DNA of 64,000 bases from Escherichia coli (GTDB lineage: Bacteria; Pseudomonadota; Gammaproteobacteria; Enterobacterales; Enterobacteriaceae): assembly GCF_011045215.1 (NCBI RefSeq), contig NZ_CP049201.1, one strand, 5' to 3'. The notes beneath the pieces are model-generated. The model did not search any database. It saw only the letters and a program-made list of their open reading frames with translations, and was not told the origin of the DNA. A program made the translations under genes and the position numbers. Below are positions 2,029 to 56,992 of this stretch, one piece after another. Position 1 is the stretch's first letter, and each line of letters begins with the position of its first letter.

Positions 2029-2111
<83 letters not shown>

Positions 2112-7740: not shown

Positions 7741-7854
7741 GCTGAAACGGATGGCCTGATGTGACGCTGTCTTATCAGACCAACAATTGAACTCTTAAGG
7801 TTCACTTAATCTCTGCCGCGCATACTCTGCTCCAGGTTAACGGAGGAGAGTGCA

Positions 7855-7944
7855 ATGAAAAACCGTGTTTATGAAAGTTTAACTACCGTGTTCAGCGTGC
7901 TGGTGGTCAGCAGCTTTCTTTATATCTGGTTTGCCACGTACTGA
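7855..7944 (+). CDS. pmrR: Small membrane protein PmrR (29 aa)
   Basis: ATG at 7855 preceded by ggaggagag; encodes MKNRVYESLTTVFSVLVVSSFLYIWFATY; its 3' end overlaps the convergent basS 3' end; below the length cut-off of the ORF track. Confidence 0.85.
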   Translation: MKNRVYESLTTVFSVLVVSSFLYIWFATY

Positions 7945-9011
7945 TCTTTCTTCAGCCGTATCCAGGCGCGCGTGCCAGAAGTCTCTTGCCGGTTTTGCAG
8001 GAAAAACTGCCCGTGATGCAACTGTGTAATGCGGCTGACAATACTTAACCCCAGACCAATCCCGCCATAACGGCTGTCCATACGTACAAACGCTTTACTC
8101 AACTCCCCGCATTTACTCTCATCAATACCCGGTCCTTCATCTTCAACGGCCATGACGGCTCCGCCATCTTCTTGCAGCTTAATCATAATGTTGCTGCCTT
8201 GCGGGCTGTAACGATGGGCATTTTCTACCAGATTTCGCAATAACATCCGCAGCAGGGTTGCATCACCCTGAACGGTGATGTCGGCGGCGCTCTCTGGCAA
8301 TAGCAGGGTTTGCTGGCGCTGGTCGAGCATAGTACTGAGTTCGTCATACGAGGGGAGAATGACATCTTCCAGCAGTTTTACATGTTGATAATTACCGGAA
8401 GAAAATGACTGTCCGGCACGCGCCAGTTGCAGCAGCTGGGAGACGCTCTCCATCATCTGATCAAGCCGTGCCACTAACGGTGCTACATCAATGTGATGCG
8501 TTTTCGCCAGCAGTTCCAGATGCAAACGCACCCCCGCCAGTGGCGTTCGCAGTTCGTGCGCGACGTCAGCGGTAAATAACCTTTCGTTATCCAGCGTGCT
8601 GGTCAGGCGACTGACCAGATCGTTCAACGCCGAAACCACCGCTTCGATTTCGAGGGTGGCGCTGTGAATGGCAATGGGCGTTAAGTTGTCGGCGGTGCGC
8701 GCTTCCAGCTCTTTTTGCAGCTCCGCCAGCGGGCGGGTGATGCGGCGTACCGCCTGATAGCAGATAAATAGCGTCAGGCTGACCATAAAGACGCCGGGGA
8801 CAATCAGGCTGGCGACCGCCTCGCGGATCTCACGCATGATGTGGCGATCGTTGTTGCGATTGTCGCGTAGCGCCTGCTCAAACAGCTGAATCTGCTCGGT
8901 ACTTTCATGCCATAGCCAGAAGACGCTGATCAGCTCAAACACCAACAAAATGGCCCCGATGGTCAATATCAGCCGTTGGCGCAGCGATATTGGTCGGCGC
9001 AGAAAACGCAT
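7920..9011 (-). CDS. basS: Sensor histidine kinase BasS (PmrB)
   Basis: Recognised BasS sequence with H-box HELRTPL and ATPase G-boxes; start set at MRFLRR (363 aa), upstream ATG at 9020 is an alternative. Confidence 0.93.
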   Translation of the reverse strand: MRFLRRPISLRQRLILTIGAILLVFELISVFWLWHESTEQIQLFEQALRDNRNNDRHIMREIREAVASLIVPGVFMVSLTLFICYQAVRRITRPLAELQKELEARTADNLTPIAIHSATLEIEAVVSALNDLVSRLTSTLDNERLFTADVAHELRTPLAGVRLHLELLAKTHHIDVAPLVARLDQMMESVSQLLQLARAGQSFSSGNYQHVKLLEDVILPSYDELSTMLDQRQQTLLLPESAADITVQGDATLLRMLLRNLVENAHRYSPQGSNIMIKLQEDGGAVMAVEDEGPGIDESKCGELSKAFVRMDSRYGGIGLGLSIVSRITQLHHGQFFLQNRQETSGTRAWIRLKKDQYVANQI

Positions 9012-51974: not shown

Positions 51975-53984
51975 ATGCAACTTTACTTGTGTGAAAAACC
52001 GTCACAGGCGCGGGATATTGCCCGGGTGCTGGGGCTCAGCGGGCGGGGAGAGGGCTGTATTGAAGGTGATACTGTCACGGTCACCTGGGCTGTGGGGCAT
52101 CTGCTGGAGCTGGCCGCCCCGGAAGCGTACGGGGAACAGTTCGGGGTTCCCTGGCGTATGGAGTCGCTTCCCGTTCTGCCTGAAAAGTGGCAGATGACGG
52201 TTAAACCGCAGACGAAATCCCAGTTTACGGTGATCAGCCGCCTGCTGAAGCGTGCGTCTGAAGTGGTGATTGCCACGGATGCGGACAGGGAAGGAGAAGT
52301 CATCGCCCGGGAACTGCTGACGTACTGCCGGTACCGGGGGCCAGTCCGTCGGCTGTGGCTGTCTGCCCTGGATGAGGCCAGCGTCCGGGAGGCGCTGGCA
52401 AATATTCTGCCCGGTGAGCAGACGGCCCGTCTGTATGATGCCGGCCTGGCCCGTGGTCAGGCTGACTGGCTGATCGGGATGAACCTGACGCGTCTGTATA
52501 CCCTTAAGGCCCGGGCGTCGGGGATCCAGGATGTGTTGTCCGTCGGAAGGGTACAGACGCCGACACTTGCCATGGTGGTCAGACGGGATCAGGAGATTGC
52601 CGGTTTTGTGCCACGCCCCTGGTGGCAGGTGTTTGTCGGGCTGGAGAAAGACGGGATCCGGTTCCGGGTCGTCTGGGTGGCGGCAGAGCAGTACTGCGAT
52701 GAAGAGAAACGGTGCGTGAACGTTCAGGCGGCCCGGGCTGTTCTTCAGTTGTGTCAGCAGACACCGTCAGCGGTGGTGCATGAGGTGACCCGGAAGTGTG
52801 AAAAAACACCGGCTCCGCTCTGTTTTTCGCTGGGTACACTGCAGGAGGCCTGCTCCCGGAAATTTGGTATGGGAGCGCAGACTGTGCTGAATATCGCGCA
52901 GTCCCTGTATGAGACGCACAAAGCCACGACGTATCCCCGGACGGACTGTGGCTATCTGCCTGAATCCATGCAACAGGAAAGCCGGGAGGTACTGGCGGCG
53001 ATGGCGCGTTCAGACCCGGCCCTGACGCCGGTTCTGGCACAGCTCGATCCCGGTTTTGTTTCACGTATCTGGAATGACAAAAAGATTACGGCACACCATG
53101 CCATTATTCCGACCCGGCAGGTCTTTGATATCAGGGCACTGAGTGAAGATGAACTGAAGGTGTATCAGCTTATCCGCCAGCATTATCTGGCCCAGTTTCT
53201 GCCCCTGCAGGAGTCTGATATTACTGATGCAACACTGACACTCGGCGGGCAACGGTTCAGGGCCCGCGGGAAAGTGAATGTGGTGACGGGCTGGCGAAGC
53301 CTGTTTTCCGGGGAGGCTGCAGAAGTTGCTGAAGGTGAAGATGAACAGACGACGGAAATGGCGTTGCCGGCGCTTGAACGGGGAGAGCACTGCCGGATTA
53401 GCGGTTCAGAACTGAAGGACCGGATGACGTCACCTCCGGCACCTTTTACGGAAGGAACCCTGATTGCCGCCATGAAGAATGCTGCCAGTCAGGTCAGCGA
53501 CCCGAAGCTGAAAAAAGTGCTGCGGGAGAATGCCGGTCTGGGGACGGAGGCCACGCGGGCCGGTGTGCTGGAGGTGTTATTTGCCCGGCAGTATCTGGAG
53601 AAGAGCGGGAAGCATATCCGGTCAACGCAACGGGGCAGGGAACTGACGGCCGCCCTGCCGGAAGCCCTGACCAGTCCGGGCATGACGGCGCTGTGGGAGC
53701 AGGCTCTGGATGATATTGCACAGGGCAGAATGTCACTGGATACCTTTATGGGCAGACAGCAGCAGTGGGTGCGTCATCTGGTCTCATCCGGGCGGGAACA
53801 GCCCTTCAGTATGACGGTTCCGGTGACGCCGCCGTGCCCGCTTTGTCAGGGGCCGACCCGGCAGCGAAAGGGAAAGCACGGACTGTTCCGGAGCTGTCAG
53901 CGGTATCCTGAGTGTAAGGGCGTGGTGAACACGCAGAAAAAGGCCGGGCGACGAAAAAACGCGGGAAAAACTAAAACGGAGTAA
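51975..53984 (+). CDS. topB: DNA topoisomerase III (TopB-like), island-encoded
   Basis: 669-aa ORF: Toprim N-terminus MQLYLCEKPSQARDIARVLG, type IA core, C-terminal zinc ribbons CPLCQG...CQRYPEC. Confidence 0.88.
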   Translation: MQLYLCEKPSQARDIARVLGLSGRGEGCIEGDTVTVTWAVGHLLELAAPEAYGEQFGVPWRMESLPVLPEKWQMTVKPQTKSQFTVISRLLKRASEVVIATDADREGEVIARELLTYCRYRGPVRRLWLSALDEASVREALANILPGEQTARLYDAGLARGQADWLIGMNLTRLYTLKARASGIQDVLSVGRVQTPTLAMVVRRDQEIAGFVPRPWWQVFVGLEKDGIRFRVVWVAAEQYCDEEKRCVNVQAARAVLQLCQQTPSAVVHEVTRKCEKTPAPLCFSLGTLQEACSRKFGMGAQTVLNIAQSLYETHKATTYPRTDCGYLPESMQQESREVLAAMARSDPALTPVLAQLDPGFVSRIWNDKKITAHHAIIPTRQVFDIRALSEDELKVYQLIRQHYLAQFLPLQESDITDATLTLGGQRFRARGKVNVVTGWRSLFSGEAAEVAEGEDEQTTEMALPALERGEHCRISGSELKDRMTSPPAPFTEGTLIAAMKNAASQVSDPKLKKVLRENAGLGTEATRAGVLEVLFARQYLEKSGKHIRSTQRGRELTAALPEALTSPGMTALWEQALDDIAQGRMSLDTFMGRQQQWVRHLVSSGREQPFSMTVPVTPPCPLCQGPTRQRKGKHGLFRSCQRYPECKGVVNTQKKAGRRKNAGKTKTE

Positions 53985-54220
53985 TCTTAATTTCTCCCTG
54001 TTCAGGATCGGGTAGTGTGGTTAAGCTTTGATGTATACCCCCGTTATCAGCGGGAGGCTGGCTCAACGAAAACACAACGGCGTTCAGTCAGCTACTGATA
54101 CCACAACCGGCCATCGCACATCCTGTCGGGTTGTAAGGCGCATGCCCTCCGTGAAAAACGCGCCGGGATTTATCCCCGGAGACAAGTGAGATAACCACCG
54201 GGCTGGTACCCCCCTGTAAC

Positions 54221-54248
54221 GGCGCTGTATTTGCAGCGCCGTTTTTTA
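54221..54248 (+). terminator. Rho-independent terminator-like hairpin
   Basis: ggcgctg-tatttg-cagcgcc followed by gtttttt. Confidence 0.6.
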
Positions 54249-54614
54249 TTCCGGGTTGACTTTCCATGGATGTGTTTTAAAAATAACCGGGCTTATTTGC
54301 TGCATCTGCAGCCAGCCAATGTTTCAGCAGTCTGAGAGAAACGCCTTCGGGTGACTGCCAGCCAACGTTTCACCGGCCTGAGAGAAACACCTTCGGGTGG
54401 CCGGAATATCCTCGTAGCCTGAAAGAGGATGCCTGTGGGCGGTACATCCGTTTAACCTCTGGAAACGGATATCACTGTTCAGTGATTGAGGTCTTTTTAC
54501 TTCTCAGACAGCCGGAATTCAGCTGATCCGGCATCCCCGACGGGAACATTCACTTCCGTCAGGGATGGTGATGTTCTCCGTCATCACATTTTTTAACTCC
54601 ATGGAGAAATCATC

Positions 54615-55070
54615 ATGTCTGTAAATACTGCTAAAACTGAATACTTTAATCTGACCCTGAAAGGTCTGGGGTATCTCAGTAATGTACGTCAGGTGAATCA
54701 CCAGAACGGCTCGTTTCTCAGCTGTGTGGTGAATGCGCTGAGCGGACCCACGGACAGCCCGTCCTACGTCCGTTTTGATGTCACGGTTGCCGGTAAAGAG
54801 GCGACTGCCCTGATTGCCCGCTGCCAGAAGGCGGTGGATGAAGATCGCAAGGTGCTGCTTGGCTTCACGCTGAGCAACCTGTCCACTGACATCTTCACTC
54901 TGAACAAGGGAGAGCATGCCGGTGAACAACGCGTCAGCCTGAAGGCCCGCCTGATCAAGGTGGACTGGATCAAGATAGGCCAGGAGATGGTTTACAAGGC
55001 TGAAAAATCAGACTCCCAGCCGCCGCAAAACGGCACCATGCAACAGCAATACGCAGAAAACTCTTTCTGA
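54615..55070 (+). CDS. ICE-associated protein (151 aa; resembles the SPI-7 STY4534-type family)
   Basis: ATG preceded by ggaga; conserved position between topB and ssb; family assignment from memory. Confidence 0.55.
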   Translation: MSVNTAKTEYFNLTLKGLGYLSNVRQVNHQNGSFLSCVVNALSGPTDSPSYVRFDVTVAGKEATALIARCQKAVDEDRKVLLGFTLSNLSTDIFTLNKGEHAGEQRVSLKARLIKVDWIKIGQEMVYKAEKSDSQPPQNGTMQQQYAENSF

Positions 55071-55160
55071 TCGTACTTTTCTCAACCGTCCTGATGAAAA
55101 CAGACTGCCTCATCAGGGCGGTCTGTTTTCTTATTGTCTTTATCTTTAAGGAAACTTCTT

Positions 55161-55364
55161 ATGCAACAGCCAAATGGCATGCTGGCCGCACAGGCCGGCT
55201 ATACGTTACCCCTTCAGGTTCTCCGCAGCGTACGTGGTTATTATATTGGTACTCAGTGTGATGAGGGACCGGTGTCCCGCGAATCCGTGGAGTATTACAG
55301 AGACCATGAGCAGGCGGCACAGGCGCTGGAAAGCGGCACCTGGACGCAGCGGACGTGTGCGTGA
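55161..55364 (+). CDS. Hypothetical small protein (67 aa)
   Basis: ATG 55161 preceded by aagga; directly upstream of ssb. Confidence 0.4.
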   Translation: MQQPNGMLAAQAGYTLPLQVLRSVRGYYIGTQCDEGPVSRESVEYYRDHEQAAQALESGTWTQRTCA

Positions 55365-55379
55365 GGATGAGGAGGCTAT

Positions 55380-55913
55380 ATGGCATCACGCGGTATTAAT
55401 AAGGTGATACTGATAGGACATCTTGGACAGGATCCGGAGATTCGTTATCTTCCCAATGGCGGAGCCGTGGCGAACCTGACCCTGGCCACCAGTGAATCCT
55501 GGCGTGATAAACAGAGCGGTGAAATGAAGGAGCAGACCGAGTGGCACCGCGTGGTGATTTTCGGAAAACTGGCGGAGATAGCCGGTGAATACCTGCGTAA
55601 GGGTTCACAGGTGTACATCGAGGGCCAGTTAAAGACCCGGAAGTGGTTCGATCAGCAGAATGGTGTTGATCGCTACGCAACGGAAGTGGTGGTGAGTGTC
55701 AACGGCACCCTGCAGATGCTGGGCTCTCCGCGCCAGCAGGCCAGTGGTGCCGCACCCGTACACAGCGGTCAGGGAACTGCCGGTGCGCCGGCGGGTAACT
55801 CACCGTCACCGGCTTCCGGGAACGGCGGGGGAATGCCGATGGATTTTGACGACGACATTCCCTTCAGTGGACCGGGATATGGCGCTGAACGGCGGATTAT
55901 CCATGCCATGTAA
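55380..55913 (+). CDS. ssb: Single-stranded DNA-binding protein (island-encoded SSB)
   Basis: OB-fold N-terminus [44 protein letters not shown], Gly/Pro-rich linker, acidic tail DFDDDIPF. Confidence 0.92.
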
Positions 55914-55961
55914 TGTTAACCCCGGGGGCATCACTGCCCCCATTTTTACCAAGGAGGTATC

Positions 55962-56894
55962 GTGAGTGAAAAAAATCATACCACCCCCACGCCACACGAT
56001 GCGGCGTTCAGGGCGATGATGGAAACCCCTTCGGTTGCAAGGGATTTTCTGGAGGCTGCGTTGCCGCCGGCACAGTTACAGCGGTGCGATATGAACACCC
56101 TGAAGCTGGAGCCGGCCACGTTTGTGGATCCGGATTTGCGTCAGTATGCCAGTGACGTTCTGTGGAGCATGAAAACCACCGACGGGCGTGATGGTTACAT
56201 CTACGCGCTGACGGAACATCAGAGCTCTGCGGATCGTTTTATGGCCCTGCGCATGATGCATTATGTGCTGGCGATAATGTATCGTCACCTGAAAACGCAT
56301 AATCAGGCCCCCGTTGTGATCCCGGTGCTTTTTTATCACGGTGAACCCAGTCCGTATCCGTACAGCCTGAACTGGCTGGACTGTCTGGACGATCCGGCGC
56401 TTGGTCGTGAGCTTTACGGCGAAGGAAAGCCGCCCCGCGTCATTGATGTGGGTCTTCTTGATGATGAGGGTATCCGTCACTATCAGCAGATGGCGGCCCT
56501 GATGCTTCTGATGAAGGTCCGTCAGCGGAAGGGCGATCTGATGACGCAGCTTGACTTTCTGTCACAGTTGCTTCAGATACAGGGAACACACGATCAGGTG
56601 GTGGTTCTGTTAAACTATATGGTGAAGGCGTGCGATTCGGCTTCACCGGAATTTATACGGGTGATGGCAGAACATCTGCCCCGGTATGAGGATGATATTA
56701 TGACTATCGCTGAACGACTTGAACTGGCGGGTATCGAAAAAGGTATCGAAAAAGGCCGTCAGGAAGAGAGAGAAAAGGCGCTTGAGAAGACGCTTGAGGC
56801 TGCCCGTCGGATGCAGAAGATGGGGATGTCGCCTGAGAGTATTCAGGAGATCCTGCAGCTTTCTGATGACGAGCTGCGGAAAGCGCTCGGTTAA
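55962..56894 (+). CDS. Rpn-family (YhgA-like) PD-(D/E)XK recombination-promoting nuclease / putative transposase
   Basis: N-terminus TPHDAAFRAMMETPSVARDFL...YASDVLWSMKT...YIYALTEHQS resembles E. coli RpnA-E; C-terminal helical domain. Confidence 0.75.
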   Translation: MSEKNHTTPTPHDAAFRAMMETPSVARDFLEAALPPAQLQRCDMNTLKLEPATFVDPDLRQYASDVLWSMKTTDGRDGYIYALTEHQSSADRFMALRMMHYVLAIMYRHLKTHNQAPVVIPVLFYHGEPSPYPYSLNWLDCLDDPALGRELYGEGKPPRVIDVGLLDDEGIRHYQQMAALMLLMKVRQRKGDLMTQLDFLSQLLQIQGTHDQVVVLLNYMVKACDSASPEFIRVMAEHLPRYEDDIMTIAERLELAGIEKGIEKGRQEEREKALEKTLEAARRMQKMGMSPESIQEILQLSDDELRKALG

Positions 56895-56963: not shown

Positions 56964-56992
56964 ACGCCAGCTTTTACGCTGGCGTTTTTTTT
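56964..56992 (+). terminator. Rho-independent terminator downstream of the rpn-like gene
   Basis: acgccagc-tttt-acgctggcgt hairpin followed by an 8-T run. Confidence 0.8.

What the first reader, a model, noticed from the sequence alone, without database searches (positions are those of the whole stretch)
54300..54614. Structured non-coding region between topB and the next gene: tandem ~45-bp repeats with UUCG-type hairpins and a compensatory substitution
Two direct repeats (about 54310-54354 and 54357-54400) each contain gagagaaac-(g/a)cc-ttcg-ggtg. In RNA this is a 4-bp stem closed by a UUCG tetraloop; the first copy has a G-U wobble where the second has A-U, which preserves pairing. Downstream lie a perfect 8-bp hairpin atccgttt-N9-aaacggat (54446-54470) and a terminator-like gtgatg-N8-catcac plus T-run (about 54568-54598) that ends just before the RBS of the 54615 gene. 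Candidate interpretations are a small RNA, a riboregulatory leader, or a DNA element such as oriT.
Basis: seen in the sequence. Interest (0 to 1): 0.6.

Follow-up and report, generated by a model that had tools for sequence, protein, structure and literature searches.

The report
Known STAXI pseudoknot-repeat leader RNA
The repeats and hairpins between topB and the next gene are a textbook copy of the already catalogued STAXI RNA motif (Rfam RF01728), and here they form the start of a long structured leader on a gene of a mobile genetic island; what the motif does is still unknown.

Summary
Window 54298-54448 (+) matches Rfam RF01728 (STAXI RNA) over the full model at 135 bits, against a threshold of 40.5 (E 1e-30).

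The 'separate' 8-bp hairpin at 54446-54470 is the pseudoknot stem of the fourth unit.

The window is an E. coli SPI-7/PFGI-1-type integrative conjugative element: topB, terminator, promoter, STAXI, STY4534/DUF3577 gene, ssb.

Comparison with 28 related loci from about 12 enterobacterial genera shows:
- A TTGACA/-10 promoter sits at a fixed distance upstream in 24 of 25 arrays.
- All stems covary, including the pseudoknot (97% paired in 49 distinct units).
- G·U pairs and C(UNCG)G loops place the fold on the sense strand and favour RNA.
- The leader ends in a conserved helix that hides the ribosome-binding site and start codon.

The terminator-like hairpin is specific to this window and weaker than that helix (-7.4 versus -22.7 kcal/mol).

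Best reading: STAXI is the 5' domain of a cis-acting leader on mobile-element mRNAs. The effector mechanism is not shown. A trans-acting small RNA or an antitermination role stays possible; oriT or another ssDNA origin is disfavoured. Novelty: already known.

The parts
54218..54243 (+). Intrinsic terminator closing the topB transcription unit (11-bp stem, followed by a T-run)
   Evidence: Terminator scan. topB is the ORF 51975-53984 (NCBIfam DNA topoisomerase III, 858 bits).
54256..54284 (+). Sigma-70-type promoter: -35 TTGACT (54256-54261), 17-nt spacer, -10 AAAAAT (54279-54284). The predicted start is near 54290-54291, about 8 nt before the first hairpin.
   Evidence: The same arrangement, with the -10 ending 28-31 nt before unit 1, occurs in 24 of 25 STAXI arrays against 1.8% of random positions, and the spacer sequences have diverged. 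The transcription start was not mapped.
54299..54312 (+). 5' hairpin of STAXI (GCTGC-ATCT-GCAGC)
   Evidence: Rfam alignment. The stem differs but stays complementary in other loci (GTCGC/GCGAC, GTTGTC/GACAAC, GCTGT/ACAGC; seen in the sequences).
54314..54358 (+). STAXI unit 1. Pseudoknot 54321-54325 with 54338-54342; outer stem 54327-54332 with 54353-54358; inner stem 54343-54345 with 54350-54352; UUCG loop.
   Evidence: Unit model R1, 73.2 bits. Pair counts.
54360..54404 (+). STAXI unit 2. Pseudoknot 54367-54371 with 54384-54388; outer stem 54373-54378 with 54399-54404; inner stem 54389-54391 with 54396-54398; UUCG loop.
   Evidence: R1, 62.6 bits. Direct repeat of unit 1.
54405..54445 (+). 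Pseudoknot ATCCTC 54408-54413 with GAGGAT 54425-54430; outer stem 54414-54419 with 54441-54445 (one bulge); inner stem GCC-UGUG-GGC.
   Evidence: Rfam alignment. The pseudoknot changes on both sides in other loci (TCTCCC/GGGAGA, ACTCCC/GGGAGT, GCCAC/GTGGC, GCCTC/GAGGC).
54446..54492 (+). STAXI-type unit 4, beyond the Rfam hit. Loop ACCUC 54455-54459 pairs with GAGGU 54488-54492. The inner hairpin is 54471-54476 with 54481-54486.
   Evidence: Same order of parts as units 1-3. Helices 1-3: 4, 1 and 4 pairs changed on both sides, 92-100% paired. The original 2010 alignment also contains this unit.
54511..54532 (+). Leader hairpin c (GCCGGA ... TCCGGC)
   Evidence: RNAalifold and pair counts: 3 pairs changed on both sides, 83% paired.
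54535..54564 (+). Leader hairpin d (CCC.G.CGGGA ... TTCCG.C.GGG)
   Evidence: 95% paired, changes on one side only. It is also present ahead of unrelated genes in other elements.
54560..54621 (+). Helix that sequesters the Shine-Dalgarno sequence and start codon. The 5' arm contains the anti-SD UUCUCC (54574-54579). The 3' arm covers SD GGAG (54603-54606) and reaches the AUG (54615-54617). The loop is U-rich.
   Evidence: The minimum-energy fold of 54555-54625 is -22.7 kcal/mol, and the same helix appears in the fold of the whole leader. It is conserved in all ICE loci at 7-15 contiguous pairs, and the bases flanking the SD differ between loci while staying complementary to the upstream arm.
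54568..54594 (+). Terminator-like hairpin GTGATG-N8-CATCAC plus six T. It is an alternative to the helix above.
   Evidence: Only -7.4 kcal/mol. The stem is absent in the other 13 aligned leaders, although the U-run is kept.
54615..55070 (+). First gene downstream: STY4534-family / DUF3577 protein (151 aa)
   Evidence: NCBIfam NF040584, 196 bits. Pfam PF12101, E 1.3e-57.
55096..55130 (+). Strong intrinsic terminator (15-bp stem) after the STY4534-family gene. It would make the unit monocistronic unless it is read through.
   Evidence: sequence.

Best explanation
The element is a canonical copy of the STAXI RNA motif (Rfam RF01728).

Anatomy. It is the 5' domain of a leader of about 325 nt on the STY4534/DUF3577 mRNA of an SPI-7/PFGI-1-type integrative conjugative element. 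Transcription is predicted to start from a conserved sigma-70 promoter (54256-54284), about 8 nt before a small 5' hairpin. Four tandem H-type pseudoknot units follow (54314-54492). Each has an upstream strand, an outer stem, a UGAGA-like bulge, the pseudoknot partner, an inner hairpin and the outer-stem return. Two more covarying hairpins follow. The leader ends in a long helix that buries the Shine-Dalgarno sequence and the start codon.

Proposed function. This promoter-plus-STAXI cassette sits at the head of transcription units in mobile elements. I infer that it acts in cis on its own transcript: it sets how much of an intrinsically translation-repressed mRNA persists and is translated, most plausibly as a compact 5' structural or protein-binding platform.

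Shown here: family identity, the structure, the folding strand, the promoter association, and the sequestration of the ribosome-binding site.

Inferred only: that the RNA acts in cis, and by what effector (stability, standby or translation control, or action on RNA polymerase).
For: Identity: full-length RF01728 hit, 135.2 bits against a threshold of 40.5.

Context matches the family's name: topB upstream and ssb downstream, in an ICE with MPF_G-type conjugation genes.

Conservation: STAXI lies on the gene's strand upstream of the STY4534 homologue in 13 of the 14 protein-anchored loci scanned with Rfam, and the unit model finds it in the 14th (L021). The loci come from eight genera: Superficieibacter, Mixta, Edwardsiella, Serratia, Cedecea, Photorhabdus, Xenorhabdus and Pantoea.

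Structure:
- A unit model built without the pseudoknot found 60 units, all on the + strand.
- The pseudoknot is 96.9% paired, with all 5 pairs changed on both sides. The outer stem is 98.9% paired. Partners slid by one to three columns give 32-72%.
- Unit 4 and the downstream hairpins are 94.4% paired against about 42% when slid, with 12 pairs changed on both sides.

RNA and sense strand:
- About 60 G·U cells against 14 non-standard cells, and a conserved G·U in 38 of 49 units.
- 40 of 49 loops are UNCG and 42 of 49 have a C-G closing pair.
- A promoter at fixed distance in 24 of 25 arrays against 1.8% in the control.
- The topB terminator lies just upstream.
- Transcripts over the homologous site in Pectobacterium (PMC4710047) and RT-qPCR detection in E. 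coli vesicles (PMC12370729).

Cis-leader reading:
- The helix over the ribosome-binding site is -18 to -26 kcal/mol in most leaders folded; the Pantoea symbiont leader (L022) was folded over a misplaced segment and is uninformative.
- The same leader end (hairpin d plus the helix) occurs ahead of unrelated first genes in other elements.
- No conserved terminator follows the array.
Against: - No transcription start or 3' end has been mapped for this element.
- The predicted start leaves about 8 unpaired nucleotides, which is not ideal for simple protection of the 5' end.
- The distance from STAXI to a start codon is not constant: about 120 nt here, about 700-800 nt where an EFASI RNA and an integrase-domain gene follow. 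A 3.1-kb plasmid carries STAXI plus EFASI with no convincing ORF. That fits a self-contained RNA at least as well as a leader.
- I found no conserved alternative pairing that links the STAXI units to the anti-SD strand, so nothing shows how the array would open the ribosome-binding site.
- Rfam files the family as a small-RNA gene.
- The loci are related by descent, so promoter spacing and co-orientation are not independent observations.
Confidence: 0.6

Rival explanations
1. STAXI is a stand-alone, trans-acting small RNA. It would be ended here by the hairpin and T-run at 54568-54594, or cut out of the leader, and would work as a stable decoy or sponge for a protein, for example a host or element factor that handles DNA or RNA.
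For: - Rfam and the 2010 description class it as a small-RNA gene.
- It was detected as an RNA of about 228 nt in Pectobacterium and in E. coli outer-membrane vesicles.
- A 3.1-kb plasmid keeps promoter, STAXI and EFASI with no clear ORF.
- The first gene downstream belongs to different families in different elements.
- Tandem, near-identical structured units are typical of protein-titrating RNAs (general knowledge).
- The window does have a terminator-like site before the gene.
Against: - The terminator stem is not conserved and is much weaker than the competing helix (-7.4 against -22.7 kcal/mol).
- No terminator follows the array in the other contexts.
- Wherever an intact gene follows, it is co-oriented, and the leader between is itself conserved and covarying.
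- No target or partner is known.
Confidence: 0.18
2. STAXI is a cis-acting processive antitermination RNA. Once transcribed, it would modify the RNA polymerase that made it, so that the polymerase reads through the weak terminator at 54568-54594, the strong one at 55096-55130 and later ones. That would couple STY4534, ssb and the long co-directional pilus and conjugation genes.
For: - The cassette always sits directly after a promoter, at the head of long co-directional gene arrays.
- Terminators lie inside the downstream array on the + strand: 55096-55130, 55924-55941, 56964-56985.
- RNA elements that do this exist at the start of conjugation operons in Gram-positive plasmids (conAn, PMC8191782).
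Against: - There is no sequence or structure similarity to known antitermination RNAs, and nothing was hit in Rfam besides STAXI.
- The partial resemblance of GGCGGTAC to the ops element lacks the G at position 8 and is not conserved.
- The idea does not explain the conserved helix over the ribosome-binding site.
- Terminators between genes are ordinary.
Confidence: 0.1
3. The motif works as single-stranded DNA, not RNA. It would be an origin of transfer, a single-strand initiation site or single-strand origin for complementary-strand synthesis, or an ssDNA promoter, used during conjugative transfer or rolling-circle replication.
For: - The 2010 authors raised this because the neighbouring genes handle DNA (flagged 'DNA?' in their table).
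- The motif is restricted to conjugative or mobilisable elements and one rolling-circle plasmid.
- Each unit holds a conserved CTG, the trinucleotide at which DnaG primase starts on G4-type origins (my own recollection, not tested).
Against: - The fold is on the mRNA-sense strand, with G·U pairs that would become A·C mismatches on the other strand.
- The loops are C(UNCG)G, which stabilise RNA and not DNA (PMC2864571).
- An ordinary duplex promoter at fixed spacing precedes 24 of 25 arrays.
- Elements of this ICE type carry two arrays in the same orientation within about 3 kb.
- On the Rep_1 rolling-circle plasmid the motif is on the strand opposite rep. By analogy with the pC194 and phiX174 families that strand should not be the displaced one. 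This step is inference.
- Leading-region ssDNA promoters of the Frpo type form the promoter inside one long hairpin, which is not seen here.
Confidence: 0.04

Closest known systems
STAXI RNA motif (Rfam RF01728; Weinberg et al. 2010, PMC2864571)
   Same: Full-length match well above threshold. Tandem pseudoknot repeats with UUCG loops. Enterobacterial mobile element, flanked by a topoisomerase gene and an ssb gene. The Salmonella Typhi SPI-7 copy in the original alignment is the same locus type.
   Different: Nothing essential. This copy has four units, whereas the Rfam model covers a 5' hairpin plus three. The promoter at fixed distance, the strand and tetraloop statistics and the helix over the ribosome-binding site are additions made here. 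I did not find them in the 2010 main text or in the supplementary files I could search (the first 200 of 438).
EFASI RNA (Rfam RF02957)
   Same: Found several hundred bases downstream of other STAXI copies, in the same orientation (L003 and L004).
   Different: Absent from this window. Here a protein-coding gene follows STAXI instead of EFASI and an integrase.
Phage T4 gene 32 mRNA leader (5' pseudoknot plus translational operator)
   Same: A pseudoknot at the 5' end of the leader of an mRNA from a module of ssDNA-binding proteins, with control at the ribosome-binding site. This resemblance is from my own knowledge and was not tested.
   Different: T4 has one pseudoknot followed by an unstructured operator bound by its own product. 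Here there are four units, a closed helix over the ribosome-binding site, and unrelated genes downstream in other elements, which argues against simple autoregulation.
conAn2 and put-type processive antitermination RNAs (PMC8191782)
   Same: A structured RNA transcribed first at the head of long operons of conjugative elements, with terminators downstream.
   Different: No sequence or structural similarity. conAn also needs a partner protein, ConAn1. No read-through data exist for STAXI.
Frpo / ssi single-stranded DNA promoters and priming signals of plasmid leading regions
   Same: Association with ssb and anti-restriction genes of conjugative elements.
   Different: Those form one long hairpin on the transferred, template strand. 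STAXI folds on the sense strand into small pseudoknots and has a conventional duplex promoter upstream.

Membership tests
STAXI RNA (RF01728) | Covariance-model score at or above the curated gathering threshold over the whole model | tested here: met
   135.2 bits against 40.5, model positions 1-153 of 153, E 1.2e-30. Also found in the whole-window scan at gathering threshold.
STAXI RNA (RF01728) | [quoted passage not shown] | tested here: met
   Four units at 54314-54492. The pseudoknot helix is 96.9% paired in 49 distinct units, with 5 of 5 pairs changed on both sides, even though the pseudoknot was left out of the search model. Unit 3. Unit 4.
STAXI RNA (RF01728) | UUCG-type tetraloops capping the inner stems | tested here: met
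   Units 1 and 2 have C(UUCG)G. Family-wide, 40 of 49 loops are UNCG.
STAXI RNA (RF01728) | Enterobacterial, next to genes for ssDNA-binding protein, topoisomerase, anti-restriction protein or integrase | tested here: met
   topB at 51975-53984 and ssb at 55380-55913. The window is 99.8% identical to E. coli chromosomes.
Intrinsic (Rho-independent) terminator defining a small RNA's 3' end | Stable G+C-rich stem directly followed by a U-tract, conserved among homologues | tested here: not met
   The window has a 6-8-bp stem with 3 G-C pairs plus six T, worth -7.4 kcal/mol. The stem is absent from the other 13 aligned leaders.
Translational repression by Shine-Dalgarno sequestration (leader hairpin) | An anti-SD strand pairs with the SD and start-codon region, is conserved, and shows compensating changes in the flanks | tested here: met
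   UUCUCCG with UGGAGAA is 96.9% paired. Minimum-energy folds are -18 to -26 kcal/mol. The flanks change together: GAUGUUUUCUCC/GGAGAAAACAUC, GAAUUUCUCC/GGAGAAAUUC, GGAAC/GUUCC. Repression itself was not measured.
Riboswitch | A conserved ligand-binding core coupled to mutually exclusive expression-platform structures | tested here: inconclusive
   No riboswitch family was hit. By inspection of the sequences and folds, I found no conserved pairing alternative between the units and the anti-SD strand. The 2010 authors scored 'switch: n'. Ligand binding cannot be tested here.
Origin of transfer (oriT) | A nic site and relaxase-binding repeats on the transferred strand, sufficient in cis for mobilisation | not testable with these tools
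   No nic consensus for the MOBH relaxase of this ICE family was available to me. Indirect evidence is against it: two arrays per related element, a sense-strand fold and a promoter at fixed spacing.
Single-strand origin / single-strand initiation signal | Folds on the displaced or transferred DNA strand, with orientation-dependent priming | tested here: inconclusive
   On the Rep_1 plasmid (Pfam PF01446, E 4e-89) STAXI is on the strand opposite rep. Which strand is displaced is inferred by analogy, not shown. Priming was not testable.

The most novel reading that the evidence does not exclude
STAXI could be a portable 'promoter plus RNA' head-module that MPF_G-type ICEs and related elements place before each establishment operon (ssb/DUF3577, integrase, anti-restriction/ArdC). 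Its pseudoknot array would then have an active role not yet described in Enterobacteria. Candidates are an RNA-based processive antiterminator, a ring-like block to 5'-end-dependent RNase E scanning, or a decoy that titrates a host defence or RNA-binding protein during entry into a new cell.
Probability: 0.15. Interest if true: 0.7.

Novelty: already known. Interest (0 to 1): 0.28.

Why it matters
As a discovery it does not matter much. The motif has been in Rfam since 2010 and this copy is typical.

Its value is in narrowing an old open point, whether STAXI acts as RNA or as ssDNA, and in making the function testable. The comparison shows three things:
- STAXI is transcribed from its own conserved promoter as the first thing on the RNA.
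- It folds on the sense strand with RNA-specific tetraloops.
- It heads leaders that end in a closed ribosome-binding site.

It also recurs before several operons of one ICE type. Cury et al. 2017 report that STAXI and radC together make up 80% of the RNA genes detected in MPF_G ICEs. Working out its role would therefore say something about how a large class of enterobacterial pathogenicity and resistance islands controls its replication, establishment and anti-restriction genes.

Tried and rejected
- Other Rfam families at relaxed threshold over 53500-55200: only chance-level hits (OrzO-P, Thr_leader and others), which are caused by terminator hairpins.
- Phage origin: no blastn match in 50,697 phage records.
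- Autoregulation by the downstream protein: rejected as a general rule. The first gene after STAXI is DUF3577 in ICE replication modules but an unrelated family ahead of ArdA/ArdC arrays (13-24% identity).
- ops/RfaH element: the GGCGGTAC in unit 3 resembles GGCGGTAG, but position 8 is not G, the sequence varies between loci (GGTGGTAC, TGTGGTAC, TTGGTAAA), and JUMPstart was not hit.
- pC194-type nick site CTTGATA on the small plasmid: absent. A candidate origin, ACTTAAGGGATAAC, lies upstream of rep on the rep strand, but I could not verify it.
- STAXI units as a conserved anti-anti-SD (GAGAGAAAC against GGAGAAAAC): the similarity is partial and does not track the anti-SD changes between loci, so I dropped it.
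- Literature: no paper in the held library assigns a function to STAXI, EFASI or STY4534.
- Selection bias: my first unit finder required pairing, so the 99% paired is biased. I replaced it with a model search that ignores the pseudoknot.

Full report
**1. What is in the sequence**

- Two 43-nt direct repeats, 54311-54353 and 54357-54399, 88% identical.
- The motif GAGAGAAAC-(G/A)CC-TTCG-GGTG in each repeat.
- ATCCGTTT-N9-AAACGGAT at 54446-54470.
- GTGATG-N8-CATCAC at 54568-54587 followed by six T.
- GGAG at 54603-54606 and the ATG at 54615.

**2. Identity**

A scan of 53500-55200 against Rfam 15 gives one strong hit. Window 54298-54448 (+) matches RF01728, STAXI RNA, at 135.2 bits (gathering score 40.5), E 1.2e-30, over model positions 1-153 of 153. 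The hit recurs in the whole-window scan.

STAXI stands for Ssbp, Topoisomerase, Antirestriction, XerDC Integrase. Weinberg et al. 2010 described it as a pseudoknot repeated two or usually three times, found near such genes in Enterobacteria. They left open whether it acts as RNA or as ssDNA, and leaned to RNA because of the UUCG loops (PMC2864571).

**3. Context**

- The ORF at 51975-53984 is DNA topoisomerase III. The ORF at 54615-55070 is an STY4534-family 'ICE replication protein' (DUF3577). The ORF at 55380-55913 is ssb. PFL_4669, PilL and other PFGI-1/SPI-7-class ICE genes flank them.
- The region is 99.8% identical to E. coli chromosomes. There it lies in an ICE next to cadC, with ParA, DnaB-PI, ParB, STY4528, topB, STY4534, ssb, pilL, traD and the conjugation genes all on one strand.
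- Cury et al. 2017 noted that STAXI and radC RNAs together make up 80% of the RNA genes detected in MPF_G ICEs (PMC5587801).

**4. Full anatomy in the window**

- A 5' hairpin at 54299-54312.
- Unit 1 (54314-54358) and unit 2 (54360-54404). Each has a 5-bp pseudoknot (GUUUC with GAAAC), a 6-bp outer stem and a 3-bp inner stem capped by UUCG.
- Unit 3 (54405-54445), with pseudoknot AUCCUC/GAGGAU.
- Unit 4 (54446-54492), which has the same order of parts. Loop ACCUC pairs with GAGGU at 54488-54492. ATCACT/AGTGAT is its inner hairpin.

The 2010 alignment already contains this last unit. The Rfam model simply holds three.

The G·U to A-U change it noticed is real. It sits at the first inner-stem pair, which is G·U in 38, G-C in 5 and A-U in 4 of 49 distinct units.

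**5. Related loci**

- A protein-anchored search with the STY4534 homologue returned 14 loci from eight genera: Superficieibacter, Mixta, Edwardsiella, Serratia, Cedecea, Photorhabdus, Xenorhabdus and Pantoea. Rfam finds STAXI on the gene's strand just upstream in the 13 that were scanned (42-121 bits). The unit model finds it in the 14th, L021.
- DNA searches found about 1,500 places in 690 of 5,426 complete E. coli genomes and 38 plasmids.
- Other contexts are: ICE modules on plasmids; a cassette of STAXI, EFASI and an integrase-domain gene followed by a second STAXI heading small genes and ArdA or ArdC; decayed copies next to IS elements; and a 3.1-kb Rep_1 plasmid carrying only rep plus STAXI and EFASI.
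- No phage record matches.

**6. Structure support**

I built a single-unit covariance model without the pseudoknot. It found 60 units in 28 sources, all on the + strand. On that alignment:
- The pseudoknot is 96.9% paired and all five pairs change on both sides.
- The outer stem is 98.9% paired.
- Sliding the partners by one to three columns gives 32-72% paired.

An earlier count used units that I had selected for pairing, so it is biased. Unit 3 pseudoknots differ on both sides between loci.

The leader from unit 4 to the start codon was aligned for 14 sequences. It folds into unit 4, hairpins c and d, and an anti-SD:SD helix. It is 94.4% paired against about 42% when slid, and 12 pairs change on both sides.

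**7. Which strand, RNA or DNA**

- G·U cells number about 60 against 14 non-standard cells. The conserved G·U would be an A·C mismatch on the other strand.
- Loops are UNCG in 40 of 49 distinct units, with a C-G closing pair in 42.
- In 24 of 25 arrays a TTGACA-like -35 and a -10 with a 16-18-nt spacer end 28-31 nt before unit 1. That is 11-14 nt before the 5' hairpin. The score is at least 8 of 12, against 1.8% of random positions. The spacer and discriminator sequences have diverged.
- In the window this promoter is TTGACT-17-AAAAAT at 54256-54284. It is preceded by the topB terminator at 54218-54243.
- RNA-seq in Pectobacterium atrosepticum reports a transcript labelled "3'UTR: topB, STAXI sRNA" (PMC4710047). 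RT-qPCR found STAXI in E. coli vesicles (PMC12370729).
- On the rolling-circle plasmid, STAXI lies on the strand opposite rep. This is modest evidence against a single-strand-origin role, because which strand is displaced is inferred by analogy.

**8. The 3' end of the leader**

- The terminator-like hairpin is worth -7.4 kcal/mol.
- The competing helix is worth -22.7 kcal/mol. It pairs 54560-54581 (including UUCUCC) with 54601-54621 (the SD and the first bases of the AUG). It is the minimum-energy fold both locally and in the whole leader.
- The terminator stem is absent in the other aligned leaders. The anti-SD helix and its U-rich loop are kept.
- The same design, hairpin d followed by a closed ribosome-binding site, precedes unrelated genes in other elements. 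The bases between the SD and the AUG change together with the upstream arm: GAAUUUCUCC/GGAGAAAUUC, GUGUUUC/GAAACAC, GGAAC/GUUCC.
- A strong terminator at 55096-55130 follows the gene.

**9. Mechanism**

Shown here: a promoter-proximal, sense-strand, covarying pseudoknot array, followed by a structured leader whose ribosome-binding site is closed.

Inferred: the array acts in cis on that mRNA. I could not find a conserved alternative pairing that would open the ribosome-binding site, so the effector step is unknown.

Rivals:
- A trans-acting or processed small RNA. The plasmid with no ORF, the EFASI contexts and the vesicle data favour this.
- Processive antitermination. The head-of-operon position, the terminators downstream and the conAn precedent (PMC8191782) favour this.
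- An ssDNA function, which section 7 disfavours.

**10. Verdict**

The element is an already known family of unknown function. Interest is low to moderate.

Noticed in passing
window 55096-55130 (+): A strong 15-bp intrinsic terminator directly follows the STY4534-family gene. Promoter, STAXI leader, gene and terminator therefore look like a monocistronic unit inserted between topB and ssb. Further + strand terminators follow ssb (55924-55941) and rpn (56964-56985).
   Followed up: partly
L004 (E. coli plasmid NZ_CP059920.1, 3140 bp): A tiny Rep_1 rolling-circle plasmid carries nothing recognisable except rep and a promoter-STAXI-EFASI block (three units above the model's threshold plus the hairpin/GAGGT unit seen by eye). 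The block is nearly identical to a chromosomal island copy. This suggests the RNA block is a self-contained, selectable module.
   Followed up: partly
L003 4126-4719 (E. coli APEC 102026, NZ_CP087290.1): The annotated 'hypothetical protein' starts inside the STAXI array. The likely true start is the ATG at L003 4318, which has its own Shine-Dalgarno hairpin. So the RefSeq ORF is over-extended across a non-coding RNA.
   Followed up: partly
L029 (K. michiganensis plasmid NZ_CP048109.1, 33-39 kb) and L003, L028: A recurring module in MPF_G ICEs: promoter-STAXI(-EFASI)-integrase-domain gene, then a second promoter-STAXI heading about five small unknown genes. ArdA or ArdC follows in L003 and L029; within the L028 stretch only hypothetical genes are annotated. 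In L029 a methylase, UvrD, the TraI relaxase and the integrase come next. The first small gene belongs to a conserved unknown family (NxSGNxAVRAH...FRYRF).
   Followed up: partly
window 7786-7951 (+) and 2031-2107 (-): Two other known small RNAs: STnc630 (169 bits) and naRNA4/CssrE (104 bits). Their location was not examined and they appear unrelated to the finding.
   Followed up: no
window 55962-56894 (+): An Rpn-family recombination-promoting nuclease or transposase gene sits between ssb and pilL. At that position the Salmonella and Pantoea relatives have DUF4160/DUF2442 genes and the Serratia relative has none, so it is a variable insertion point in this ICE type.
   Followed up: no
L018 3612-5961 (Photorhabdus heterorhabditis): Group II intron RNA domains (D1-D4 and the catalytic domain) lie just downstream of the STY4534 homologue.
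   Followed up: no
L010 about 2860-2940 (Mixta tenebrionis): The leader carries a duplicated block of about 40 nt containing an N. This is probably an assembly artefact and not a real duplication of hairpin c.
   Followed up: no
L001 3829-3988 (E. coli RM11911, next to cadC): A frameshifted integrase fragment lies at the cadC-proximal edge of the ICE, just before parA. This may mark an older insertion at the same site.
   Followed up: no
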